Of a stretch of DNA of 64,000 nt, positions 105 to 63,793 are shown piece after piece (within the stretch, counting starts at the first letter, position 1; each line of letters starts with the position of its first letter). The stretch is taken from IMG/VR virus record IMGVR_UViG_3300050821_002957, positions 207,192 through 271,191 of that record; one strand, written 5' to 3'. This DNA is from a virus. The notes beneath the pieces were generated by a model. That model was given only the letters and a program-made list of their open reading frames with translations. It did not search any database and was not told where the DNA came from. The translations under genes were made by a program, and so were the position numbers.

Positions 105-320
105 TCATTTGGTCTTCGCCTCCTTGATTCTTCTCATGCGCTCGATGTACCACAGTGTGCTGGCTTCTCGCTTGATTCGCTTCTTGCAATGCACACAGGT
201 CACCGCATCTTTATCGTTGGTCTTCTCACCTTCGTCCCGTCCACAATAGGCGAACGTCTTGCCTTCAGGATTCGTGATCTCGATGCCGTGGATTTTCATG
301 CCTTCGCCTTTAATGGACAA
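105..320 (-). CDS. small Zn-ribbon protein (CxxC...CxxC), hypothetical
   Basis: 71-aa ORF with two Cys pairs; last gene of a minus-strand block 1134->105 with overlapping stops/starts. Confidence 0.4.
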   Translation of the reverse strand: MSIKGEGMKIHGIEITNPEGKTFAYCGRDEGEKTNDKDAVTCVHCKKRIKREASTLWYIERMRRIKEAKTK

Positions 321-1134: not shown

Positions 1135-1171
1135 GCTCTAAGAATAGCAAATTGAAATACCCATGTCAATA

Positions 1172-5637: not shown

Positions 5638-5817
5638 TTACCGTCTCAAGAGATTTTCTGTATGTTTCAAAAACATCTCGTGCGACTGCATCAGAGCATA
5701 CAAGGCAAGCTGATCACGTTCGTCGGGAGTTGCTTCGAGCTTCATGAAGAGGCTCGGAATGATTACGAGTGTTTGGTAGGCTCCCAACACTGTGCAGGAC
5801 GTTCCGTCAAGTTTCAT
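5638..5817 (-). CDS. small protein, paralog A of tandem pair
   Basis: 59-aa ORF MKLDGTSCTVLGAYQTLVIIPSLFMKLEATPDERDQLALYALMQSHEMFLKHTENLLRR; not in ORF track (<60 aa). Confidence 0.35.
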   Translation of the reverse strand: MKLDGTSCTVLGAYQTLVIIPSLFMKLEATPDERDQLALYALMQSHEMFLKHTENLLRR

Positions 5818-6180
5818 TTGAGAATCACCCTTTTGTGATTAGTAGTTCTTTGGGTTAAAAGTTCTCGGCCATCCCTTTTTGCTGTTCATCCATACACAGC
5901 AAAGTGAAAGTAACTGTTTTTCACAGTTTTGTGGGTAACTCAAAGAATTTAAAGGATTGTGAGCAATTTTGATCATCTCTGAGACCTTGTGATGTTCTCA
6001 GTGTGGCGCAAAAACATCTGATGGCATTGCATTAGCGCATACAAAGCAAGCTGATTTCGTTCGTCTTCGGTCGCTTCTAGCGTCATAAACAAAGAAGGAA
6101 TGATCACCAAAGTATGGTAAGCATTCCGAATCGTACACAGTTTTCCATCGAGCTTCATTTGGGGAGCCTTTCAAGCCTTC
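5640..6180. repeat. tandem duplication (two ~190-bp copies, about 5640-5830 and 5990-6180)
   Basis: gcatacaaggcaagctgatcacgttcgtc vs gcatacaaagcaagctgatttcgttcgtc and flanking similarity. Confidence 0.6.
5973..6158 (-). CDS. small protein, paralog B of tandem pair
   Basis: 61-aa ORF about 75% identical to paralog A. Confidence 0.4.
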   Translation of the reverse strand: MKLDGKLCTIRNAYHTLVIIPSLFMTLEATEDERNQLALYALMQCHQMFLRHTENITRSQR

Positions 6181-6238
6181 TTTCAAGCCTCTATTAAAGT
6201 GTCCTTAATCACACCACGACCGGCGTGTTTTGTAACGA

Positions 6239-6265
6239 ACGTAATAGTACGTAAACGATACGTAA
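6239..6265. repeat. three ACGTAA iterons spaced 10 and 11 bp
   Basis: acgtaatagtacgtaaacgatacgtaa read directly. Confidence 0.4.
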
Positions 6266-6272
6266 TTTGACC

Positions 6273-6302
6273 CAGAATAAAGCAAGTGTACTAAGGTGTC
6301 AA
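6273..6302 (-). promoter_or_regulatory. minus-strand promoter -35 TTGACA / 17 nt / -10 TATTCT upstream of the iterons and tandem small genes
   Basis: RC of 6273-6302 read directly. Confidence 0.35.
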
Positions 6303-6355
6303 GTTAATTTTTCATAAACATGCAGAAATGTTTTAGGTTACCCAAAAGATAGGAT

Positions 6356-6871: not shown

Positions 6872-6899
6872 ATCTTTATTTATCTGGACACAATAAGAA

Positions 6900-6922
6900 G
6901 CCCCGACTTTTTAGATCGGGGC
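6900..6922 (-). terminator. GC hairpin (GCCCCGA/TCGGGGC, 9-nt loop) followed on minus strand by ttcttatt
   Basis: between convergent-ordered minus genes; read directly. Confidence 0.35.
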
Positions 6923-6980
6923 TTCGGATACTGACCTTGGAAAGGTCGGGAGAATTACGTCTCCATCGATAGTGAAATAA

Positions 6981-8063
6981 TTACTGCGCTGATGCCGTTT
7001 CTTCGGGAGCAGCTACCGAAACCACCTGATGACCATTCATTGCAGCTTCGCCGATAGCCGTCGCAGTGGATGCCAGATCCTTCTTGGATACGGTTTGCTT
7101 GACGGTTGCGCCGATGAAGGGCTTCCATTTGGTTTTGATCACGTCGGCACGCAACGCATCGAATGCGAGTAACATGGCACGACGAATGAAGATCGGACGA
7201 GTTTTGTCACGCTGGCCGGTTGCGAACGTCTCGACCAATTCCGACCGCAGAGCATCAACAGGATTGCCCTTGGGCAGCGAATTCTCCAACGGATTGAAGA
7301 AGGCTTCCATGAACAACATGCCCTTTTCACGGTCGATGTCGAACATCTTCAGGGCGGCGGCGGCGTAAATCGGAATGCGCTTCGTGCCCAGTTCGTCGTT
7401 CACGCTGCCGTGCGAGCGAAACAGAGTTGCGATGGTTTCGTAGACCGAATCGAAATACTCACGCTTGGTCTTGTACTCGTCGTTGATTTCGAGACGAGAC
7501 ATTGCCTTGTTGATGCTGCCCGGTTTGATGTTCTCTGGGAGCATGTAGTATTCGACCATCTCCCACTTGTGAGTGTCCACGTTTGCAAAATGGGCGAGGT
7601 TGGTCTTGGTGCGCTTTGCAACGCCCATGACGAGAAGATTGTCGATCAGAGCTTCGATGTTATCCACATGAATGCCGGTCAGCACTGTGGTTTCATAGCT
7701 CACTTCTGGATTGATCTCTGCTGCTTTCAGCACTGCGTTGCACCGATGTTGCAAATCGATGCCGTCTGCGGTGTCCGTAAACAACAGAGGTTCTCCAGTG
7801 TTGCGAAAATGTCCATTAAGCATCTGCCGTGCCATCGATTCGACCACCGACCAGTTGATCGGGCGATTCGTGACCTTGGGGTCCTTAAGGTTGAACTTCA
7901 GCAAAAATTCGGCAAGCTGCTTGTTTAGGCACACCGTGAACACTTTCACTTTGCTGTCTTTGCTGGATGCTTCGAGCGTCTTATTGAGAAGTGCCAGGGC
8001 TTTGCCTGACCCTTTCAACGTTTGGATCTGTTGATCGTCAATCGTTTGAAGATTGGTAGTCAT
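6981..8063 (-). CDS. ParB/Srx-fold protein with DGQHR-like motif (DGIDLQHR)
   Basis: 360 aa from ATG 8061-8063 (track ORF extends to GTG at 8192); motif ...EPLLFTDTADGIDLQHR resembles DGQHR/DndB-like ParB domain. Confidence 0.4.
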   Translation of the reverse strand: MTTNLQTIDDQQIQTLKGSGKALALLNKTLEASSKDSKVKVFTVCLNKQLAEFLLKFNLKDPKVTNRPINWSVVESMARQMLNGHFRNTGEPLLFTDTADGIDLQHRCNAVLKAAEINPEVSYETTVLTGIHVDNIEALIDNLLVMGVAKRTKTNLAHFANVDTHKWEMVEYYMLPENIKPGSINKAMSRLEINDEYKTKREYFDSVYETIATLFRSHGSVNDELGTKRIPIYAAAALKMFDIDREKGMLFMEAFFNPLENSLPKGNPVDALRSELVETFATGQRDKTRPIFIRRAMLLAFDALRADVIKTKWKPFIGATVKQTVSKKDLASTATAIGEAAMNGHQVVSVAAPEETASAQ

Positions 8064-8713
8064 AGAAGTCTTTCTTAGTTCTGAATTGAAAACGATTGGC
8101 TCAACACGCCGAGAATTTTTGACGTTTGTCCTTTCGTCTGCCTTCTCTTGTAGCAACGTTGATGCCAAACCTGTCTCACACACGAAAACCACGCTTTTTC
8201 AACATACGAAATTCTGTCTTCGCTGTTGTTTCACTTTTTGGATGCAAAATTTTCTGCAAAAGATGCACGAAACTTTGGTTGTGATGAAAAAACTGCAATT
8301 TTTGTATACCACCAGTGACGACATATGGACACTAGGTGACGGCCATTAGACATCATTGGCGCAGGTAACATATGTTAAATGGCGACACATGACCCATAAA
8401 GTAAAAGGGAGCAAAGTCTATGCGACTCGGCTCCCTGGACTACAAGCATTTGCGAACTATTCAATCAAGTATATAATGAGACCAGTGCTATTGCCTGTTG
8501 GTAATCATCCGCACACCCGGCAACTACCAAGTCCCCGTTGAAGTCGATGCGACGGACGTGAACATTTCTAGTTCTTTCGACCCGGCCCCGAAATGGTCAA
8601 CCGTGAGTTTCAGGTCTAGCACTCAACGTTCGCTCGTCACTAATGGCTGAGTACACTATTAATGTACCACCTGGAGTGATCCTTGTCAAACTTGGTACAT
8701 ACATATTTACGAG

Positions 8714-9225: not shown

Positions 9226-9264
9226 GATACATCTATTGACTTCGGTCGGCATTTTTGCTAAGAT
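9226..9264 (+). promoter_or_regulatory. promoter: GATACATCT-A-TTGACT / 17 nt / extended -10 TGcTAAGAT
   Basis: read directly; nearly identical to promoter at 27647. Confidence 0.5.
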
Positions 9265-23422: not shown

Positions 23423-23459
23423 AGCATATCACTAGGATTATTCCCTGTCAATAGGTATC
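23423..23459 (-). promoter_or_regulatory. minus-strand promoter GATACCT-A-TTGACA / 17 nt / extended -10 TGaTATGCT
   Basis: RC read directly; second TTGACA copy at 23416-23421. Confidence 0.45.
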
Positions 23460-23465
23460 AAAAAA

Positions 23466-26339: not shown

Positions 26340-26575
26340 TCCCGCCAGTCATACTTGTCAACTTGTCCTAGTCCAGTCAGCCAGACAAGCACAAAGGCCG
26401 TCCAGTGCGAGAAACAGTAGGGACAAGAAAACAAACGAATTCCCTTGGTCCACTCCCGGAATTTCTCGAACATGACCGACCGAGTGACTGTGATTGTCAG
26501 GGCCATGTTCGCCAGCGATATCACCAGTAGAGCTTTGAGTCCCATTGTGTTATGCCGGAACGAAGACACCTTCAT
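26165..26575 (-). CDS. membrane protein
   Basis: 136 aa, 3-4 TM. Confidence 0.4.
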   Translation of the reverse strand: MKVSSFRHNTMGLKALLVISLANMALTITVTRSVMFEKFREWTKGIRLFSCPYCFSHWTAFVLVWLTGLGQVDKYDWRDWVVPGFHSQAVYHFDIIFFQHLYVFDPITYFIQCFAVIGLTAFLTYSWIAISELPTP

Positions 26576-27158
26576 TGGCGATGATGTTCTTCATGATTGC
26601 CCGGAGACGATCTGCCGCTGCGCCATACTTCTTTCCGAATGTGATGGCGGCTTGGCGAGATGATTCCCAGATTTCGATTTGCTTTTCGTTGACATGAGGA
26701 TCGAGGTTCCAGACATTGGACGGCTGGAAATATCCTCTTCCTCGCTCAAAGGCATTTTCGATCAGGTACATTTGATGCATACTGAAGACAGCTTTGAGGC
26801 GGCGTACCATATCGTCGGTTTCGATCATGTTGTTGTATTGTCCGTCCAGGCCGGAAAACTTGAACTTGTTTTCGAGAGTGACGACCGACATCAGACAGGC
26901 TCCCAGGCCACAGACTTCACAATATGGCTGGAGTTTCTTGGCGGTAGCCTTTGAGTCTTTCTTGTTTGCTTCGATGATCTTTTCGACTTCGGTGTCTTCG
27001 TACTTCCCGTCTTTGTACTTGGTTTTGGGAGAGTACATTTTGACGAAGGCTTTCCCGGTTCGGATGGCTTTATATCTTTTGATCGACTTCAGCACATCTT
27101 TGGCGACGGCGATTGCACGTTCTTGTTTTGGGGTCAAAGTTTCATTAGTAGTAGGCAT
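26550..27158 (-). CDS. hypothetical protein
   Basis: 202-aa ORF, first gene of long minus block. Confidence 0.5.
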   Translation of the reverse strand: MPTTNETLTPKQERAIAVAKDVLKSIKRYKAIRTGKAFVKMYSPKTKYKDGKYEDTEVEKIIEANKKDSKATAKKLQPYCEVCGLGACLMSVVTLENKFKFSGLDGQYNNMIETDDMVRRLKAVFSMHQMYLIENAFERGRGYFQPSNVWNLDPHVNEKQIEIWESSRQAAITFGKKYGAAADRLRAIMKNIIANEGVFVPA

Positions 27159-27220
27159 ATCGGGAAGGATACCTTAGTATTTTCTAGGTGTCAAGTTTTT
27201 GCGGCTGGCTCCGAACAAAA

Positions 27221-27455
27221 GGGACCCAATGAAGAAGGCAATGAAGAACTTTCCGATGGTTTTCATATTCTTGGAGTATAGCACTACCGGAGTCCCAAAG
27301 GCAGGGACCCTTTTCAGGATTTCTATAGGGTCAAATTTTTGGTCCGGGAAAATTTTGAGATTTTTGGGGGATGGGACCCTTTTCGGAAATTTTGCTGGGA
27401 CTTTTTTCTGGTACGTCCTCGGAAACGGTAGGGTGGGGTTGTATAACGCCTGCGG
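27221..27455. repeat. GGGACCC iterons (27221, 27304, 27373, degenerate 27448) interleaved with A/T tracts
   Basis: GGGACCCTTTTC exact 12-mer at 27304 and 27373. Confidence 0.45.
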
Positions 27456-27646
27456 ATGGGAACCCTAACCCGGAAAACACTGTGTATTCGACCCCGTACC
27501 CCATGTGTTCTCAAGCACTTGCGTCGATGCGGCTCGGCGAGTCTACATATATTCAGGGTGATGTTCGTCTCTACCCATCCTCATGAGCGTGGCTGCTAAC
27601 ACGACGAGCGACAAGGCCACGCTCTAAAAAATCCTCAAAAATTATT

Positions 27647-27686
27647 GATACATCTGTTGACATTGGATAGATGCATCTGCTAATCT
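27647..27686 (+). promoter_or_regulatory. promoter GATACATCT-G-TTGACA / 18 nt / extended -10 TGcTAATCT with 10-bp palindrome AGATGCATCT (27669-27678) in the spacer
   Basis: read directly. Confidence 0.5.
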
Positions 27687-27690
27687 AGTC

Positions 27691-28189
27691 ATGTAGTCAA
27701 GAGGTTCAAGACAAATAAACGAAAGGCGGCGAGATTGCAAAGCATGAGGAGGACATAGGCGCTCACTTGAGTATGCTGGTTTCAAATGATCGGCAACGAG
27801 AGCGACAAGAGCATTTGATGCAAGCCGTATGATGCTGGTGCGGCCCAAGCTGAAATCTAATCCGTGTTGCTCGGGTCATATGGCGAGACACGTCGGAAAG
27901 AATCCCAGCGTCATACACTCCAGCGACCAATGGTGTATGATTGGTTGATTGACGGATGATCGACGGCGAAGAGCGGACAAGTGCTGAGAGACGCCCTGAA
28001 TCAGTAGCCGTAGATGTCACGAGGATTGCACAGCTTTTCATCCGGCTTGTGCGACTGCGACGAAAGAACGAGAGACGATATGCGCTAACTTGAATAACAT
28101 ACCCTGCTCGGGTTTAAGAGCCTTAAAATTTACTCCTTTCCTGAGGCGCTTTGCAGAGAAACACTGCGGAGCGCCTTATGTGTTTTGGG
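27691..28189 (+). ncRNA. candidate ~490-nt non-coding transcript (promoter to terminator, begins AUG-UAG, no ORF >45 codons)
   Basis: inferred from promoter/terminator; GC-richer than flanks. Confidence 0.3.
28145..28189 (+). terminator. hairpin GGCGCT...AGCGCC followed by TTATGTGTTTT
   Basis: read directly. Confidence 0.4.
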
Positions 28190-28208
28190 CCTGCTATATA
28201 TTTGAAAC

Positions 28209-28433
28209 ATGCTGTACTGCGCCCGGTGTGACAGAAACTTTTTTGACGGCGAGGATATAACAATTCGCTCGGTGGCCGGAACTGAGCAAGCATATCATCA
28301 CGGCTGTCACGTTGACCTCTGCGACGAACTCAGAGAAGTTGCAAAGTCATTCGGCCCGACTTTTGACCAGGACGCCTACGTGCCTGTGATGTTTTTCTCC
28401 CGGACCTTTCGTGATTCGCAAATTGTTCACTAA
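28209..28433 (+). CDS. small Cys/His protein
   Basis: 74-aa ORF C..C....HHGCH..C. Confidence 0.35.
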   Translation: MLYCARCDRNFFDGEDITIRSVAGTEQAYHHGCHVDLCDELREVAKSFGPTFDQDAYVPVMFFSRTFRDSQIVH

Positions 28434-28569
28434 CGAACACACCACTACAGGTTGCGCTTTGTGATATAAAGTTGACAGGTTTCTTGTAAGTTGTTCATAA
28501 ATGCCTCAAAACAGTTGCCATATGATGTGTTATCAGCAATTGGTTAGAAGTTGTGATAAACTGGGTTTC

Positions 28570-29253
28570 ATGAAGAACGCCTATCGAATCGTCGGGACGG
28601 TCGTCTACATCACGGTCGAAACCACCGGCAAGACAAAATTGAAAAAAGAAACGTTGATCGATGTCGCCGACCTGGACATGCTTCTCCATCATCCTGTGAA
28701 AACTTGGTACGCTCATCTTGCAAAAGCTCCAGCCGGAAAATTTTATGTACTCGGCAAAGAATATTCTGCGGAGACACGAAGCTCGACAACACAAATGCTG
28801 CATCGTGTTCTCATGGGCGATCCCCGAAAAAAGTCTGGCAGAGCAATCGAGATTCATCACGTAGACAATGACGGCTTGAACAATCGGCACGAGAATATGG
28901 AGCGCAAATCACATCGGGGAAACATTCGAGCGCATTGGCCAGAAAGAAACTGGGTGCCTTACGATGAGTCGCTTGATCGAATTGTCGTCTTCAAAAAACT
29001 TGTCCAGATCGGCAAAGATATTCAGGCGACATATGAACTGACTCGCCAACAGCTATGGAAGATTCGCACAGGAAAAACATTGGAGTCAGCAGCGGCAAAG
29101 GCTTTTTGGTTCGCTGTGCTCGATGCATATCCTCAGTTGTTTCATAAAGAATGGAGAAGTGCGCCCTGGAAAGTCGGAGCGGCTGCAATCAAACAGTTTT
29201 GTGTTTCAAAAGAAAAAGGTGTGACGGCTGAAAAGTTGTCTGTTTCTTGGTAA
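28570..29253 (+). CDS. HNH homing endonuclease (HNH_3 type), freestanding
   Basis: LHRVLMG...IEIHHVDNDGLNNRHENM; ORF in track begins 28501. Confidence 0.7.
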   Translation: MKNAYRIVGTVVYITVETTGKTKLKKETLIDVADLDMLLHHPVKTWYAHLAKAPAGKFYVLGKEYSAETRSSTTQMLHRVLMGDPRKKSGRAIEIHHVDNDGLNNRHENMERKSHRGNIRAHWPERNWVPYDESLDRIVVFKKLVQIGKDIQATYELTRQQLWKIRTGKTLESAAAKAFWFAVLDAYPQLFHKEWRSAPWKVGAAAIKQFCVSKEKGVTAEKLSVSW

Positions 29254-41334: not shown

Positions 41335-42126
41335 CTAAACAGGCTCGACCGGATAATTCGGCAGACCGAGACCGGCGATATGCTTGCATGAGCCATGAAC
41401 ACGATGGGCCATGCAAGAACACTGCCAGCGATGATTGGTCTTGTGCTGACCGATGGTGTACTCGCTCGTGCTGTCCGTGAATGATTTGACCGTGAAGCGA
41501 TTGGTGTAGAAGGCAGTGTCCTCCAAGCGAGTCGAGGTACGGGGTATCAGTACCTTCGGCAACACAGCGGGAAGCGGTTGGCGCTTCGGAGCACCAGGAA
41601 TATGAACTTCCTCGCACGAGATGTCATTGCCGTCATCGTCGATGCTGACCTTGAAGCAAAAGACCATCGGCAGACCATTGACCATTTTGCCGGTGTCCAC
41701 GACGTAGCGATACTCGATGTCGCAGGGATCTTTCATCATGATGCCACATGAAATGAAATCGAGGCGTTCCTTTTTCGGAACAGAAGTGAACTCACGCTTT
41801 TCGTTCGGGTCCTTTGGATTGTGCGAATGCTCGTGCAGCTTGCCTGCGGCATCTTTGAATTTGTAATCGACGGCGAACATCTCACCGAGGAACACGACGT
41901 ATCGGGCAGCGAGAAAAGCATCGTCATCCAGACGATTGTCCTTGAGCTTCTTGCAACGGCGAAGGAACTTGTACAGATCGACGCCAGCGCCCTTGGGATA
42001 GCCGTCGCTGTGACGATAAACGATGGCGCTAAGATAGGGCTTGTTCGTTACTGGATCGATGTATGTGCTGTCGATGAAGTGTGTCGTTGACCGTGTGCTC
42101 ATGTATCTAAGATAGCAAAGATACAT
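41335..42126 (-). CDS. hypothetical protein with C-terminal SWIM-type Zn finger
   Basis: CSCMAHRVHGSCKH. Confidence 0.45.
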   Translation of the reverse strand: MYLCYLRYMSTRSTTHFIDSTYIDPVTNKPYLSAIVYRHSDGYPKGAGVDLYKFLRRCKKLKDNRLDDDAFLAARYVVFLGEMFAVDYKFKDAAGKLHEHSHNPKDPNEKREFTSVPKKERLDFISCGIMMKDPCDIEYRYVVDTGKMVNGLPMVFCFKVSIDDDGNDISCEEVHIPGAPKRQPLPAVLPKVLIPRTSTRLEDTAFYTNRFTVKSFTDSTSEYTIGQHKTNHRWQCSCMAHRVHGSCKHIAGLGLPNYPVEPV

Positions 42127-42133
42127 CTAAAAG

Positions 42134-42472
42134 TCAACCACAGAGAGGAACTTTATTCTCTTCCTTTTCAACAACTTGAATCCACTTTCTCAGGTAGTAA
42201 CGAGCGTCGTATTTTGTGCTCGTTTCTGCTTGAACAAATGGCGTTGGTTTGCTTTCAAGAATGAGTGGCATCGGCGTGGCTTTCAACATTGCGAGTTTGA
42301 AACGAACGTCGGGCCGTCTATCGAATCGCACGATCATTTCAGGAGCGTATTGAATCGCTGTACCGCCCGGTGTGGATCGTTGTTTAAGAATTTCGATTTT
42401 GAGCGAGTCGTTCATTCTGCTCCAGCATGTACATTTCAAAATACACTGACGACGTGACATCGTTCTCCGCAC
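42134..42472 (-). CDS. hypothetical protein
   Basis: 112-aa ORF. Confidence 0.35.
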   Translation of the reverse strand: MRRTMSRRQCILKCTCWSRMNDSLKIEILKQRSTPGGTAIQYAPEMIVRFDRRPDVRFKLAMLKATPMPLILESKPTPFVQAETSTKYDARYYLRKWIQVVEKEENKVPLCG

Positions 42473-50841: not shown

Positions 50842-50881
50842 ATCCTAACAGGTTCGAGGGCGAATGTCAATAGACGTATCT
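50842..50881 (-). promoter_or_regulatory. promoter AGATACGTCT-A-TTGACA / 17 nt / extended -10 TGtTAGGAT, leaderless (ATG 6 nt after -10)
   Basis: RC read directly. Confidence 0.45.
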
Positions 50882-51155
50882 ACTTTTTATCACCAATCAG
50901 TTCGTCAATAATGGCTTCTAGACCGACATGAATAATGGTGAATCCGTCCGCATCATTCATGGTTTTGGGGTAGCTGACATTAAGATCATGGCGGGAATGT
51001 TTGAAAATGTACGTCAACAGTGAGCCGTCCCGTTTGGCGTCCAAATACAGCACTAATCCCATCTCTCCGAAGTGCTTTAAAAACAAGCGCTTGAGATCCT
51101 CAGGAAACGCCAGATCATCGGCCAGCTTTAACTGCTCCAACGTGTAGGCTTTCAT
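50880..51155 (-). CDS. hypothetical protein
   Basis: 91-aa ORF. Confidence 0.4.
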   Translation of the reverse strand: MKAYTLEQLKLADDLAFPEDLKRLFLKHFGEMGLVLYLDAKRDGSLLTYIFKHSRHDLNVSYPKTMNDADGFTIIHVGLEAIIDELIGDKK

Positions 51156-51162
51156 ACTTCCA

Positions 51163-51203
51163 ATCCTATCAGGTTCAAGGGTTAAAAGTCAACTAGATGT
51201 ATC
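51163..51203 (-). promoter_or_regulatory. paralogous promoter GATACATCT-AG-TTGACT / 18 nt / TGaTAGGAT, leaderless
   Basis: shares GAACCTGWTAGGATT with promoter at 50842. Confidence 0.45.
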
Positions 51204-51788
51204 AGTTTTTTCGTACCAATTTGGCGGCATCGGGGTCCAGCTTTTCGTGTCCCGAATGTCGCAAGGCACGTCGGCGTCTTGTGGCCGTAGATGCTTGTGG
51301 TATGCGTGTAGGCGACGTTGAAATTTGGAAGTGCTCAGATAGTCCCCAAGCGTCATCGGTGCGTCTACGTGCGCCGGATTGAGTTCACCGCAGGTTGTAC
51401 AACGACGCAGCAGAAAATCGTGATCGCATTCGGTAGTGGCAGACGATGCATTCACAGTAGTGATGTCGTACCGTGTGAATGTTTCATTCGAGTCCCAACA
51501 AAGCGTGAGCGGTTCGATTTCCCTTATTGTTGCGGTGACAAAACGTGTTCCCTTCTCCTTGGACTCGACAAAAATTTTGAAGGATTCTTGCGTCATTAAC
51601 AGACGTTCAATCACATCACGATAGGTCAAATCTTCATCATCTAAAATACGAATTTTCCACTCACCTTCGCCCGGAAGTTCCCATGCGCCAGCAAGACATT
51701 CTTTCAATCCAGGATGAAGCAGTCGTACCCGAAGATTTGGTCGTTCGATTGGATTGAATTTACCGAAGTTAACGATGCTGAATGCCAT
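51189..51788 (-). CDS. hypothetical protein
   Basis: 199-aa ORF. Confidence 0.45.
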   Translation of the reverse strand: MAFSIVNFGKFNPIERPNLRVRLLHPGLKECLAGAWELPGEGEWKIRILDDEDLTYRDVIERLLMTQESFKIFVESKEKGTRFVTATIREIEPLTLCWDSNETFTRYDITTVNASSATTECDHDFLLRRCTTCGELNPAHVDAPMTLGDYLSTSKFQRRLHAYHKHLRPQDADVPCDIRDTKSWTPMPPNWYEKTDTSS

Positions 51789-62239: not shown

Positions 62240-63553
62240 TTATTTCAACGCAGTCATTGCTGCATTGATTTTGGAATTGATAGCGTCGGCTCCACAAGTA
62301 CAAGAACTATAGCCATCTTCTGCACCACACGCCATTTTGTGTGATACATAGGCACCTTCCAGGGCGACCTTTGCTCGAATGAATCAAAACTTTTGAGACC
62401 GGCGCTGGCAACAAACTATCAGCAGTAGGTTTTGTTTCTCTCATTGCCCAGAACTGTGTATCGTAGACACGAGCGAACAGCGGTAACGGCGGTGTTAGAT
62501 TACGGAGAACCACTTCGGTCGGCAGGATGATTTGCTCAAAGCGCATCCGAAGAAAATCCATCGGCGGTGCGGCGTAAATTTCGTAGAGCTTCATTTCTTG
62601 ATCGCCGCTTTCTTCTTTTTCATCTTTGTTCCGGCCATGCACAAACCAACTGTGATTCCAAACCAGACGTTCATGATTGCAATCTGGCCCACTGTATAGG
62701 TGGTAGCATTCAGCATTGGTTCGACCTTATCGTTGATCCGAGAGTCTTCCATTAAATTTAATCGTTCGAGAATGTCTTTTACTATGTCGGCTCCGGTCGG
62801 CTGCGCCATGTACATGATCTTTGGTCCGAGAAATTCGTAAAGACGTTTGCGGTCTTCGGGCGGCAAAGAGTCGGCTCCGATCAAATCGTAAGCGTCTGCA
62901 AATTCTGGCTTCATGATGAAGTCAAGAACTTTTTTGAAGTATAATTGGCCTTCTTCAGGCGTTCCATCAAACATTGGCATTATGCAGCCTTCTTTCCGAG
63001 AATTGCAATGATTGCCCACTTCTCAAGTTCTTTTTTCGGCCAACGAGCAGCAGGCCACGGATCACCAAGAGAAACCCATTCCCCGGCGTGCATCACAAAG
63101 GCCCAGGTGTAGCAAATGCCTTTACCATACCAGCGGCGGTCGAAAGAGAATTCCATGTTAGTTCTGTCCTTTCGTCTGGACTCGAACCCAGGCAGTTGCT
63201 TTCTCTGTGCGCCAATAGCAGCCGTAGGCCATGAAGCGAATACGATTTCCTGTCATGCTTGCAAGGCCCTCGATCTTGGCGGCGACCGGCTTGCGTGCGT
63301 GATTGTCGAACATAATCACATCACCGACCTGAACGTCTGAGGCGGCTTTGTAATCGCTGTTGCTTTCGTTCAGAGGCAGGGTGCTCATTTAGTTGACTCC
63401 CAACCAGAGTAAAAATATATGATACAACCGAACAATCTTATCTTCACGTTCACGACGCCGAATCAGTATTGAACGTCGGTGACCAGCTTCAATGTGAGAC
63501 TGTGTTATGCCCATGAATCAATAATAGCAAAACGGACACGCCAAGTCAAGTAG

Positions 63554-63793
63554 CTACATCTTTTTTCTTCGGGCCTTTTTTGCGGCTCTTTTGTCGGCTC
63601 GGATCTTCTCAACTTCAGCCATTACAGCACGTTCGTAGGCGGCGGCGATGTCAAGCTGAAAGACCTTGCGACGGCCCTTGAGACGAAGCGCCAGCCATGT
63701 AGGATGGATCGTGACGGCAATTTGACGAGACTTGCTACCTTCTCGAAAAGTGCTGTACGTCAATCGAGTTGTAGGCTTGTTGGCCTTGGTCAT
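63554..63793 (-). CDS. small basic protein, possible ribbon-helix-helix DNA binder
   Basis: 79 aa, Lys/Arg-rich C-terminus. Confidence 0.3.
   Translation of the reverse strand: MTKANKPTTRLTYSTFREGSKSRQIAVTIHPTWLALRLKGRRKVFQLDIAAAYERAVMAEVEKIRADKRAAKKARRKKM

What the first reader, a model, noticed from the sequence alone, without database searches (positions are those of the whole stretch)
27647..28189. Strong promoter with palindromic operator driving a ~490-nt apparently non-coding transcript
The promoter at 27647-27686 is followed 4 nt later by ATG-TAG and then about 490 nt with only tiny ORFs. The transcript ends at a hairpin + U-tract terminator (28145-28189). The spacer contains the perfect 10-bp palindrome AGATGCATCT. 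The stretch is GC-richer than its surroundings, and the two minus-strand ORFs the track reports here have implausible composition. This is a candidate phage sRNA or regulatory RNA, or the leader of a replication primer transcript next to the iterons.
Basis: partly seen in the sequence, partly recalled or inferred. Interest (0 to 1): 0.55.

Follow-up and report, generated by a model that had tools for sequence, protein, structure and literature searches.

The report
Conserved non-coding RNA unit, huge phage
Between two gene clusters of a very large uncultured phage lies a stretch of about 450-500 bases, framed by a promoter and a terminator, that encodes no protein yet is kept in a related phage, so it is most likely a new phage RNA gene of unknown function.

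Summary
Window 27647-28189 has a sigma-70-like promoter, about 450 nt with no coding signal, and the strongest terminator-like hairpin in the 60 kb scanned.

The key new evidence is one homologue, JGI contig L159. The body is 70.8% identical to it, about the same as the neighbouring 74-aa gene (72.1%). Its substitutions show no codon periodicity, it has 14 indels that are mostly not multiples of 3, and no ORF is kept in frame. It also contains perfectly conserved blocks of 14-25 nt.

The promoter belongs to a phage-wide family (GATACATCT box, TTGACW, N17-18, TAnnnT) that normally drives leaderless genes. The "palindromic operator" in the spacer is a second copy of that box, and both copies are conserved. 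The ATG-TAG is not conserved.

Conserved secondary structure is significant only for the terminator and, weakly, for one stem-loop (27826-27918). The invariant purine-rich 5' block is predicted to be unpaired. There is no Rfam match.

Verdict: a real, conserved, orphan phage non-coding transcription unit whose function is unresolved. I favour a trans-acting RNA. The main rival is an origin-linked transcript, because the unit sits next to co-evolving iterons. No expression data exist and only two sequences are available.

The parts
27620..27646 (+). A-tract, UP-element-like region upstream of the promoter (CTAAAAAATCCTCAAAAATTATT)
   Evidence: Read from the sequence. L159 keeps A-tracts at the same place (CTCTGAAAAAACACACAAAAATTTT). 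GC is 0.33-0.35 here.
27647..27656 (+). Box 1 (GATACATCT+G), the family-specific element abutting the -35
   Evidence: GATACATCT or its complement occurs 6 times in 64 kb against 0.33 expected, and 5 copies lie next to TTGAC. The same box sits in 7 promoters of a related phage. L159 has GATGCATCT at the same position.
27657..27662 (+). -35 hexamer TTGACA
   Evidence: L159 has TTGACT.
27669..27678 (.). Box 2, perfect palindrome AGATGCATCT inside the 18-nt spacer; a probable operator
   Evidence: Only exact copy in the window. It differs by one base from the family box. L159 has AGATGTATCT at the identical position. The promoter at 42137(-) also carries the box in its spacer, whereas its orthologue in the relative L031 carries it upstream of the -35.
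27681..27686 (+). -10 hexamer TAATCT (TAnnnT type)
   Evidence: Family -10s are all TAnnnT. L159 has TACGCT after the same 18-nt spacer. The generic scan does not accept it.
27691..27696 (+). ATG-TAG: present but not a conserved feature
   Evidence: L159 reads tgtcTTGT---- at this place, with no ATG and no TAG. In family promoters the leaderless ATG lies 6-8 nt after the -10; here the distance is 4 nt. The inferred start of transcription is about 27692-27695.
27717..27753 (+). Block A: invariant purine-rich 5' block AAACGAAAGGCGGCGAGATTGcAAAGCATGAGGAGGA, 36 of 37 bases identical. It contains a strong Shine-Dalgarno-like GAGGAGGA and a conserved 4-codon ATG AGG AGG AYM TAG (27744-27758).
   Evidence: Perfect runs of 21 and 15 nt. 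27700-27759 is 75% purine, against a window mean of 0.49 (sd 0.08). It is predicted unpaired in both phages (z = +0.84 and +0.96).
27826..27918 (+). Conserved stem-loop domain: outer 12-bp stem 27826-27837 with 27905-27918, plus inner helices
   Evidence: The outer stem forms in the MFE fold of both sequences. RNAalifold helices 7-9 show 2 compensatory and 3 one-sided changes and no broken pair. The column-shuffle z is -2.29 on the + strand against -1.38 on the - strand. Support is modest.
27974..27998 (+). Block B: invariant 25-mer CGGACAAGTGCTGAGAGACGCCCTG
   Evidence: RNAalifold pairs part of it with 27917-27924 through 8 bp with 2 one-sided changes.
28038..28075 (+). Block C: TCATCCGGCTTGTGcGAC-TGCGACGAAAGAACGAGAGA. 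It repeats the ACGAAAG..GAGA motif of block A.
   Evidence: Perfect runs of 14 and 20 nt. The conserved bases are read in different frames by the only ORFs that overlap them in the two phages.
28142..28188 (+). Intrinsic terminator: 15-bp hairpin 28142-28178 plus a U-rich tail
   Evidence: -25.2 kcal/mol, z = -3.8. The L159 counterpart gives -25.0 kcal/mol, z = -5.2, with a different stem sequence and 3 compensatory pairs. Conserved-structure z is -5.2 to -6.4 on the + strand.
27217..27407 (.). Context: iteron-like cluster GGGACCCTTTT (27217 inverted, 27304, 27373, degenerate 27397) with phased A/T tracts
   Evidence: No other copy with 1 mismatch or fewer in 64 kb. L159 carries GGAGTCCC(T/G)TTT three times in the same gap.
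28192..28433 (+). Context: extended -10 promoter TGcTATATA (28192-28200) and a leaderless 74-aa CxxC...HHGC gene (28209-28433) immediately after the terminator
   Evidence: 77% identical homologue P0010. Mismatches by codon position are 14/12/36 (p = 2e-4) with no indels. The -10 is conserved.

Best explanation
**What it is.** A discrete, conserved non-coding RNA gene of a huge phage. Its contigs are 179 and 406 kb.

**Shown**
- About 450 nt between a conserved promoter and a conserved intrinsic terminator have no coding capacity in either of two phages.
- The stretch is nevertheless as conserved as the adjacent protein gene, with invariant blocks of 14-25 nt.
- The promoter is one of a family used for leaderless phage genes. 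It uniquely carries a second, palindromic copy of the family box in its spacer, and both phages keep that copy.

**Inferred**
- Host-type RNA polymerase starts near 27692-27695 and stops at 28178-28188, giving an RNA of about 0.45-0.5 kb.
- A phage (or host) protein that binds AGATRYATCT occupies the spacer box and shuts this promoter off, so the RNA is made only in a defined time window.
- The RNA acts in trans through its invariant, largely unpaired purine-rich blocks (A, B, C). It would do so by base pairing with, or sequestering, a conserved partner that lies outside the 64 kb seen here. That partner could be a phage or host RNA, the ribosome's anti-Shine-Dalgarno end, or an RNA-binding protein.
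- The stem-loop 27826-27918 and the terminator hairpin give the RNA stability.

**How likely**
- That it is a selected, functional non-coding element: about 0.85.
- That it works as a trans-acting RNA as described: about 0.4.
For: - **Non-coding:** codon-model scores are negative in all six frames across 27360-28140, and small ORFs are indistinguishable from decoys. Against L159, mismatches by position mod 3 are 44/42/36 (p = 0.72), with indels of 4, 8, 11, 2, 2, 1, 2, 6, 16, 1, 1, 1, 1 and 16 nt. The 74-aa gene gives 14/12/36 (p = 2e-4) and no indels. No ORF is kept in frame.
- **Selected:** identity is 70.8%, while 49% of third codon positions in the neighbouring gene differ. Perfect runs reach 21, 15, 25, 14 and 20 nt.
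- **Promoter:** family membership. L159 keeps both boxes, the -35, the 18-nt spacer, a TAnnnT -10 and the A-tracts.
- **Terminator:** the strongest in 60 kb. It is conserved with compensatory changes and a conserved-structure z down to -6.4, and is stronger on the + strand.
- **Strand:** the + strand is purine-rich, at the 96.6th percentile.
- **5' block A:** unpaired in both sequences.
- **Own promoter downstream:** the next gene has a conserved promoter of its own, so this transcript is not needed to express it.
- **Precedent:** orphan 0.24-0.6 kb ncRNAs are known in large phages, namely Kayvirus lncRNA1 and lncRNA2 (PMC7698491) and PA5oct ncRNA001-004 (PMC7318152).
Against: - There are no expression data, so the start and end of the transcript are inferred.
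- Only two sequences exist, so covariation is underpowered.
- Apart from the terminator and one stem-loop, conserved structure is not significant (body z = -0.83; local windows).
- No complementary target longer than 12 nt was found in the window.
- Invariant blocks of 25-37 nt could equally be DNA-level sites.
- The unit lies next to an iteron cluster and near the cumulative GC-skew minimum, which points towards a replication role instead.
- There is no Rfam family.
Confidence: 0.4

Rival explanations
1. Origin-linked transcript. The 1.3-kb gap is a replication origin: an iteron array bound by an initiator, next to a promoter. Transcription from 27657 activates or primes replication through an R-loop formed by the purine-rich, invariant 5' block, or through a processed primer as in ColE1 RNA II or the conserved sequence blocks downstream of the mitochondrial light-strand promoter. 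The spacer operator would license or shut off initiation, and the terminator would shield the downstream genes.
For: - An iteron-like cluster that is unique in 64 kb lies 250-440 bp upstream. Its motif differs between the two phages in a concerted way (GGGACCC against GGAGTCCC).
- The gap is the largest intergenic region and the switch point between leftward and rightward genes.
- The cumulative GC-skew minimum of the window lies at 24-26 kb.
- 27700-27759 is 75% purine, which favours stable RNA:DNA hybrids.
- T4 oriE combines iterons, an early promoter, transcriptional divergence and a skew shift. T4 oriF and oriG use a factor-dependent promoter whose transcript forms an R-loop (PMC3016281).
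Against: - There is no A+T-rich unwinding element downstream of the promoter (GC 0.42-0.57).
- R-loop formation at T4 oriF is not sequence-specific, whereas here blocks up to 350 nt downstream are invariant.
- A strong conserved terminator and a conserved internal stem-loop suggest a defined RNA product.
- There are no DnaA boxes and no recognisable replication genes nearby.
- The skew minimum is 2-3 kb to the left and also tracks gene orientation.
- The iterons could instead be regulator or partition sites.
Confidence: 0.27
2. Cis-acting element rather than an RNA product. Either the unit is a long leader with a regulated terminator (attenuation or antitermination) that controls read-through into the rightward genes, or the invariant blocks are DNA-level protein-binding sites and transcription across them is incidental.
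For: - The promoter, leader and terminator lie directly upstream of a co-oriented gene cluster.
- The invariant blocks show little structure.
- A motif CG(A/G)AAAG(A/G) recurs in three conserved blocks about 170 nt apart, read.
Against: - The segment just upstream of the terminator (28077-28141), where an antiterminator would lie, is the least conserved part of the unit. It is about 50% identical and has a 16-nt indel.
- The 74-aa gene has its own conserved -10 immediately after the terminator.
- The blocks are neither palindromic nor tandem as DNA sites usually are.
- No riboswitch, leader or antitermination family appears in Rfam.
Confidence: 0.15
3. It encodes one or more very small proteins: the 45-aa Arg-rich ORF 27956-28093, the 24-aa ORF 28014-28088, a 21-aa TTG ORF 27767-27832, or the conserved 4-codon ATG AGG AGG AYM TAG at 27744-27758.
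For: - This phage and its host tolerate leaderless and Shine-Dalgarno-poor initiation, so the absence of a Shine-Dalgarno sequence is not an argument.
- A 24/25-aa ORF pair and the 4-codon ORF exist in both phages.
Against: - The 45-aa ORF is not kept in L159.
- The 24-aa pair reads the conserved bases TCATCCGGCTTGTG in different frames in the two phages.
- There is no codon periodicity, and codon scores sit within the decoy range.
- The invariant blocks lie mostly outside any shared ORF.
Confidence: 0.04
4. Decaying remnant of a lost gene that keeps its promoter and terminator and has no present function.
For: - The family promoter normally drives a leaderless ORF, and here ATG is followed by TAG.
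- Homing nucleases next door (HNH here, Endonuclease_7 in L159) mark a plastic region.
Against: - Invariant runs of 21-25 nt, and 70.8% identity where 49% of synonymous-type sites differ, are not neutral decay.
- No frame retains a coding signal.
- The ATG-TAG is not shared, so no common ancestral start is visible.
Confidence: 0.05

Closest known systems
Orphan ncRNAs of large lytic phages found by RNA-seq: Kayvirus vB_SauM-515A1 lncRNA1 (570 bp) and lncRNA2 (525 bp, driven by a typical early promoter); PA5oct ncRNA001-004 (236-619 nt)
   Same: They are intergenic, 0.24-0.6 kb, lack a plausible ORF, and have unknown function. Only the Kayvirus lncRNA2 is reported with its own promoter, a typical early one. 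The PA5oct ncRNAs were described as lacking known promoters, and lncRNA1 is read from the promoter of the upstream tRNA unit (PMC7698491; PMC7318152).
   Different: There is no sequence similarity to any deposited phage. Here the evidence is comparative (conservation, promoter and terminator) with no expression data; there it is expression with little comparative analysis. This unit also has an operator in the promoter spacer and lies next to iterons rather than tRNA genes.
T4 replication origins: oriE (iterons plus an early promoter at a point of transcriptional divergence) and oriF/oriG (MotA-dependent promoter plus a downstream unwinding element, with an R-loop primer)
   Same: An iteron cluster, an adjacent promoter that may depend on a phage factor, a position at a strand switch of transcription, and a compositional skew shift (PMC3016281; window).
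   Different: There is no A+T-rich downstream element. The transcript is about 450 nt long with invariant blocks and a strong terminator. Origin activity has not been tested.
ColE1 RNA II primer transcript (from my own knowledge)
   Same: A non-coding transcript of about 0.5 kb whose sequence and folding matter along its whole length, and which forms a hybrid with the template.
   Different: No antisense RNA I-type promoter or terminator is evident on the minus strand. The system is not a plasmid. The RNase H site and the origin cannot be tested here.
Phage immunity RNAs processed from early leader transcripts: P4 CI RNA and P1/P7 c4 RNA (from my own knowledge)
   Same: A non-coding RNA from a repressible early promoter that acts by pairing with conserved target sequences.
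   Different: Those RNAs are 77-79 nt and their targets lie on the same transcript or nearby. No complementary site longer than 12 nt was found in the 64 kb.
Large structured bacterial and phage ncRNAs: GOLLD, ROOL, OLE, HEARO, raiA
   Same: Similar size range, and some occur in phages or prophages.
   Different: There is no Rfam match even at E of 10 or less, and no significant conserved global structure.

Membership tests
Any Rfam 15 family (including GOLLD, ROOL, OLE, HEARO, group I/II introns, riboswitches, tmRNA, 6S) | Covariance-model score at or above the family's gathering threshold | tested here: not met
   The whole window at gathering threshold gives only tRNA-Val. For 27100-28500 at E of 10 or less, the best hit scores 19.7 bits against a threshold of 55 and is a eukaryotic snoRNA. 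L159 likewise gives nothing.
Intrinsic (Rho-independent) terminator | G+C-rich hairpin with a short loop, followed directly by a U-tract on the transcribed strand | tested here: met
   15 pairs (8 G-C), a 7-nt loop and the tail TGTGTTTTGG. Free energy is -25.2 kcal/mol (z = -3.8) here and -25.0 (z = -5.2) with tail UUUUCUGCGUUUG in L159. Conserved-structure z is -5.2 to -6.4.
Sigma-70-type promoter | -35 TTGACA, a 16-18 nt spacer, and a -10 TATAAT with A at position 2 and T at position 6 | tested here: inconclusive
   The -35 matches 6 of 6, the spacer is 18 nt, and the -10 TAATCT matches 3 of 6 while keeping T1, A2 and T6. It fails the scan's threshold, but it matches this phage's own promoter family and is conserved. 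No start-site data exist.
This phage's box-TTGACW promoter family (defined here) | A-tracts, GATACATCT ending 1-2 nt before TTGAC(A/T), N17-18, TAnnnT | tested here: met
   The difference from other members is that no leaderless ORF follows and a second box lies in the spacer.
Protein-coding gene or small ORF | Codon periodicity of substitutions, indels in multiples of 3, and an ORF kept in frame in relatives | tested here: not met
   Mismatches by position mod 3 are 44/42/36 (p = 0.72), and 13 of 14 indels are not multiples of 3. No frame-conserved ORF exists. Codon scores are negative. Stop-codon recoding is not indicated.
Structured ncRNA (RNAz/R-scape sense) | Conserved secondary structure beyond shuffled alignments, with covarying pairs | tested here: inconclusive
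   With two sequences, only the terminator (z = -5 to -6) and the 27808-27920 window (z = -2.29) stand out, and the body as a whole gives z = -0.83. The 10 compensatory pairs in the RNAalifold model are circular evidence.
T4 oriF/oriG-type R-loop origin | [quoted passage not shown] | tested here: not met
   GC is 0.42-0.57 over the first 300 nt after the promoter. The defining features are taken from PMC3016281.
Iteron-type origin (T4 oriE, plasmid and lambda-like) | A cluster of direct repeats bound by an initiator, next to an A+T-rich region, with origin activity | not testable with these tools
   The repeats are present and lineage-specific, and an A+T-rich tract lies at 27610-27700. Initiator binding and origin firing cannot be tested. 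There are no DnaA boxes.
Repeat-based RNAs (CRISPR array, ToxI-type antitoxin) | Tandem or regularly spaced repeats within the transcript | tested here: not met
   Only short two-copy matches are found in 27100-28520.
Transcription attenuator or riboswitch leader | A conserved alternative (antiterminator) pairing that overlaps the terminator's 5' arm | tested here: inconclusive
   No such helix appears in the consensus fold. The 65 nt upstream of the terminator are the least conserved part of the unit. This was not examined exhaustively.

The most novel reading that the evidence does not exclude
A huge phage that expresses many of its own genes as leaderless mRNAs makes an abundant ORF-less RNA. 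That RNA has an exposed, invariant, strong Shine-Dalgarno-like tract (GAGGAGGA) and further purine-rich blocks. These would titrate the 16S anti-Shine-Dalgarno end or 30S subunits, or another pyrimidine-binding host factor, and so tilt translation towards leaderless phage messages. An alternative novel reading is that it is the first defined origin RNA with 'conserved sequence blocks' in this clade of huge phages. Nothing here excludes either reading, and nothing specifically supports the first beyond the unpaired invariant block A and the phage's leaderless habit.
Probability: 0.07. Interest if true: 0.8.

Novelty: new member of a known kind. Interest (0 to 1): 0.45.

Why it matters
Huge phages are known almost only from metagenomes, and their non-coding content is essentially unannotated. 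The gene caller left this 1.3-kb gap empty.

This locus gives three things:
- a well-delimited candidate RNA gene, with comparative evidence of selection, that can seed a new RNA family;
- a regulatory grammar for this phage lineage, namely an operator box, a leaderless promoter family and a second late-like motif;
- a concrete candidate for a replication origin or control region.

If the RNA proves to act on host translation or on replication initiation, it would be a new phage take-over or replication device. If not, it joins the growing list of abundant phage ncRNAs whose function is unknown.

Tried and rejected
- **Stop-codon recoding (TGA or TAG):** one + frame has only TGA stops after the TAG, but its composition and codon score are non-coding, and known-family genes are intact under code 11.
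- **Rfam:** at gathering and permissive thresholds, on the window and on L159, nothing was found.
- **blastn against 50,697 phage records:** no match.
- **tblastn of the neighbouring proteins:** no match.
- **Synteny through the 202-aa neighbour:** 8 homologues exist, all in other gene contexts.
- **Protein-seeded scans of viral contigs with four neighbouring proteins:** nothing.
- **DNA-pattern scans:**
  - the double-box pattern in metagenomes gave nothing;
  - the box pattern in viral and metagenome contigs found related phages, but none covered this region;
  - conserved blocks in viral contigs and genome contigs gave nothing or only chance hits;
  - nhmmer with the two-sequence profile over all 1.8 Mb held found no further member.
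- **Profile search with the 74-aa pair:** no further homologues.
- **Antisense targets of blocks A-E in the window:** matches of 12 nt or less, at chance level. An RNAduplex scan timed out.
- **Local thermodynamic structure of the single sequence:** not significant except at the terminator.
- **DnaA boxes:** none in the region.
- **Function of neighbours:**
  - Pfam and PHROGs gave only a weak HNH hit for the 250-aa gene;
  - the AlphaFold model of the 74-aa protein was too poor to use (pLDDT 51);
  - the 202-aa protein modelled well (pLDDT 86) but has no PDB fold match and no PDB sequence match.
- **Another large gap (5818-6355):** checked as a possible second such unit, it turned out to hold a missed small gene.
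Full report
**Where this is.** The window is identical to a 178.9-kb Logan contig, and the same proteins also lie on a 405.6-kb contig. The genes are small and mostly of unknown function. The few matches are to jumbo and huge phages: an AAA ATPase is 35-37% identical to the uncultured huge phages LR756508, LR756511 and LR756500, and a GP88-like protein matches Xanthomonas, Stenotrophomonas and Tunturiibacter jumbo phages. The finding sits in the largest gene-free gap of the window, 27159-28208. To its left is a cluster of leftward genes ending with a 202-aa gene. To its right is a cluster of rightward genes. The public gene calls for the Logan contig leave 27159-28500 empty.

**The observation.**
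- GATACATCTG (27647-27656) abuts a perfect -35 TTGACA (27657-27662).
- The 18-nt spacer holds the palindrome AGATGCATCT (27669-27678), the only exact copy in 64 kb.
- The -10 is TAATCT (27681-27686).
- ATG-TAG follows at 27691-27696.
- A 15-bp hairpin (28142-28178) with a U-rich tail closes the stretch.

The generic sigma-70 scan does not report the promoter, because the -10 matches only 3 of 6 positions. The hairpin is the longest of all 48 terminator-like hits in the 60 kb scanned, and such hits are otherwise no more frequent than in shuffled sequence. A codon model trained on 55 long ORFs of this window scores every frame negative from 27360 to 28140. True genes score 0.23 +/- 0.13. No small ORF there is distinguishable from decoy ORFs.

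**The promoter is one of a family.** Listing all TTGAC(A/T)-N15-19-TAnnnT sites showed a recurring architecture: A-tracts, GATACATCT(A/G), TTGAC(A/T), N17-18, TAnnnT, then an ATG 6-8 nt later.
- GATACATCT or its complement occurs 6 times against 0.33 expected, and 5 of those copies lie next to a -35.
- The ATG spacing means these promoters drive leaderless mRNAs. 16 of 118 predicted genes have TAnnnT 5-9 nt before the start codon, against 5.5% of all ATGs.
- A related phage (IMG/VR sample 3300037076, about 65% DNA identity over parts of the window) uses the same element, GTTGATACATCTATTGACA, at seven promoters.

Another promoter (42137, minus strand) also has the box in its spacer, whereas its orthologue in the relative has it upstream of the -35. 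This suggests a protein-binding site that acts at more than one position. At 27657 the ATG is only 4 nt from the -10, outside the family's 6-8 nt, so it may not even be transcribed.

**A homologue, and what it shows.** The 74-aa ORF just after the terminator (28209-28433) was not called on the Logan contig. It has a 77%-identical homologue on a 2.8-kb JGI contig, L159. L159 has the same layout: the end of a leftward gene, a gene-free gap of 1.2 kb, then the 74-aa gene. What follows is an Endonuclease_7 gene rather than the HNH gene of the window. blastn aligns L159 695-1587 with window 27532-28421 at 69% identity, and MAFFT gives the full picture.

| Feature | Transcript body 27691-28141 | 74-aa gene 28209-28430 |
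|---|---|---|
| Identity | 70.8% | 72.1% |
| Mismatches by position mod 3 | 44/42/36 (p = 0.72) | 14/12/36 (p = 2e-4) |
| Indels | 14 (4, 8, 11, 2, 2, 1, 2, 6, 16, 1, 1, 1, 1, 16 nt) | none |

- In the gene, 49% of third codon positions differ.
- The body therefore evolves as non-coding sequence, yet more slowly than synonymous-type sites.
- Its conservation is concentrated in perfect runs: 27717-27737 (21 nt), 27739-27753 (15), 27974-27998 (25), 28038-28051 (14) and 28056-28075 (20).
- No ORF is preserved in frame. The 45-codon Arg-rich ORF is not kept. The only paired ORFs (24 and 25 aa) read the conserved bases in different frames in the two phages.
- The ATG-TAG is absent from L159.
- L159 keeps box 1 (GATGCATCT), the -35 (TTGACT), box 2 (AGATGTATCT), the 18-nt spacer, a TAnnnT -10 (TACGCT) and the upstream A-tracts.

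**Structure.**
- *Single sequence:* only the terminator is more stable than shuffles.
- *Two-sequence alignment, RNAalifold energies against column-shuffled alignments:* z is -5.2 to -6.4 for the terminator, stronger on the + strand, and -2.29 for 27808-27920. The body as a whole gives -0.83.
- *Terminator hairpins:* both are about -25 kcal/mol with different stem sequences.
- *Stem-loop:* the outer 12-bp stem 27826-27837 / 27905-27918 forms in both MFE folds and carries compensatory changes.
- *RNAalifold model:* it has 96 pairs, of which 10 show double changes. It was derived from these same two sequences, so that count is not independent evidence.
- *Block A:* the invariant 5' block lies in a 60-nt stretch that is 75% purine, 3.3 sd above the window mean. 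It is predicted unpaired in both phages.
- *Other details:* block A contains a strong Shine-Dalgarno-like GAGGAGGA with no start codon at working distance, and a conserved 4-codon ATG AGG AGG AYM TAG. The motif CG(A/G)AAAG(A/G) recurs in three conserved blocks.

**Comparison with known families.** There is no Rfam match at any threshold, no similarity to deposited phages, and no repeats of the CRISPR or ToxI kind. No further homologue turned up in any scan I could run. In kind, it resembles the orphan 0.24-0.6 kb ncRNAs seen by RNA-seq in Kayvirus and PA5oct.

**Context that bears on function.**
- 250-440 bp upstream of the promoter lies a cluster of GGGACCCTTTT repeats, unique in the 64 kb.
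- L159 has GGAGTCCC(T/G)TTT three times in the same place. This is the pattern expected of iterons that co-evolve with their binding protein.
- The gap is a point of transcriptional divergence, and the window's cumulative GC-skew minimum lies 2-3 kb to its left.
- T4 oriE combines iterons, an early promoter, divergence and a skew shift. T4 oriF and oriG use a factor-dependent promoter whose transcript forms an R-loop (PMC3016281).
- Against a simple R-loop origin: there is no A+T-rich element downstream, the invariant blocks extend 350 nt from the start, the terminator is strong and conserved, there are no DnaA boxes, and no replication genes are recognisable nearby.

**Judgement.** It is well supported, at about 0.85, that this is a selected non-coding element framed by a conserved, operator-bearing promoter and a conserved terminator. 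How it works is inferred.
- *Trans-acting RNA, about 0.4.* I favour this reading. The RNA would be made in a time window set by the box-binding factor and would use its exposed invariant blocks to pair with, or sequester, a partner encoded elsewhere.
- *Origin-linked transcript, about 0.27.* This is the main rival.
- *Purely cis or DNA-level role, about 0.15.*
- *Micro-ORFs, about 0.04.*
- *Neutral remnant of a lost gene, about 0.05.*

The limits are plain. There are no expression data, only two sequences are available, and only 64 kb of a genome of about 400 kb could be searched for targets.

Noticed in passing
window 1141-1169(-), 9226-9264(+), 23423-23465(-), 42109-42137(-), 50842-50882(-), 51163-51205(-), 63520-63565(-); L026, L028, L030, L031, L038: A promoter family: A-tracts, GATACATCT(A/G), TTGAC(A/T), N17-18, TAnnnT, then an ATG 6-8 nt later, which implies leaderless mRNAs. 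It is shared with a related phage from IMG/VR sample 3300037076. The AGATRYATCT box looks like the site of an unknown phage transcription factor.
   Followed up: partly
window, upstream of gene starts at 2528(-), 35056(-), 38120(-), 47262(-), 51788(-), 61955(+): A second recurring motif, CTAAATA(C/T/A/G), lies 5-9 nt before the ATG and has no -35. It is reminiscent of the T4 late promoter TATAAATA and may mark a late, also leaderless, promoter class.
   Followed up: no
window 27217-27407; L159 about 283-532: An iteron-like cluster, GGGACCCTTTT three times plus one degenerate copy, with phased A/T tracts. It is unique in the 64 kb. The relative has GGAGTCCC(T/G)TTT instead. It is a candidate origin or regulator-binding array.
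   Followed up: partly
window 28192-28433: A 74-aa CxxC...HHGC (zinc-ribbon-like) gene that was not called on the Logan contig. It is shown to be real by third-position substitutions against its 77%-identical homologue. It has an extended -10 (TGcTATATA) 8 nt before its ATG. The AlphaFold model was too poor to classify (pLDDT 51).
   Followed up: partly
window 27174-27266 (-); L159 about 195-293 (-): A small hydrophobic ORF (MKTIGKFFIAFFIGSLLFGASRKNLTPRKY, 30 aa) with a TATACT -10 8 nt upstream. L159 has a 32-aa hydrophobic analogue in the same place. It may be a conserved leaderless membrane micro-protein.
   Followed up: no
window 27425-27465 and 27585-27625: Conserved elements upstream of the promoter. 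One is the invariant ACGGTAGGGTGGGG..TTGTATAAC..GGATGGGAACCC. The other is a 9-bp hairpin (GAGCGTGGC/GCCACGCTC) whose stem sequence differs in L159 (GAGGCGTG/CACGCCTC), followed by A-tracts. Their meaning is unknown.
   Followed up: no
window 27744-27758; L159 902-916: A conserved 4-codon mini-ORF, ATG AGG AGG AYM TAG, overlaps the Shine-Dalgarno-like GAGGAGGA inside invariant block A.
   Followed up: no
window 28501-29253 against L159 1771-2205: The slot downstream of the 74-aa gene holds an HNH-type endonuclease in one phage and an Endonuclease_7 gene in the other. It appears to be a hot spot for free-standing nuclease genes.
   Followed up: no
window 26550-27158 (-): The 202-aa neighbour has homologues in several unrelated phage contexts. 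Its AlphaFold model is confident (pLDDT 86, pTM 0.85) but has no fold match in the PDB (best E = 1.1) and no family assignment.
   Followed up: partly
window 5638-5817 (-) and about 5977-6159 (-): Two paralogous genes of about 60 aa (MKLDG...LALYALMQ...). The second lies in a gap that my crude gene caller left empty. A family-type promoter at 6302-6274(-) lies upstream of it.
   Followed up: partly
window 6897-6925 (-): The only other strong terminator-like hairpin in the window (11 pairs, 7 G-C). It lies downstream of the 403-aa gene 6981-8192.
   Followed up: no
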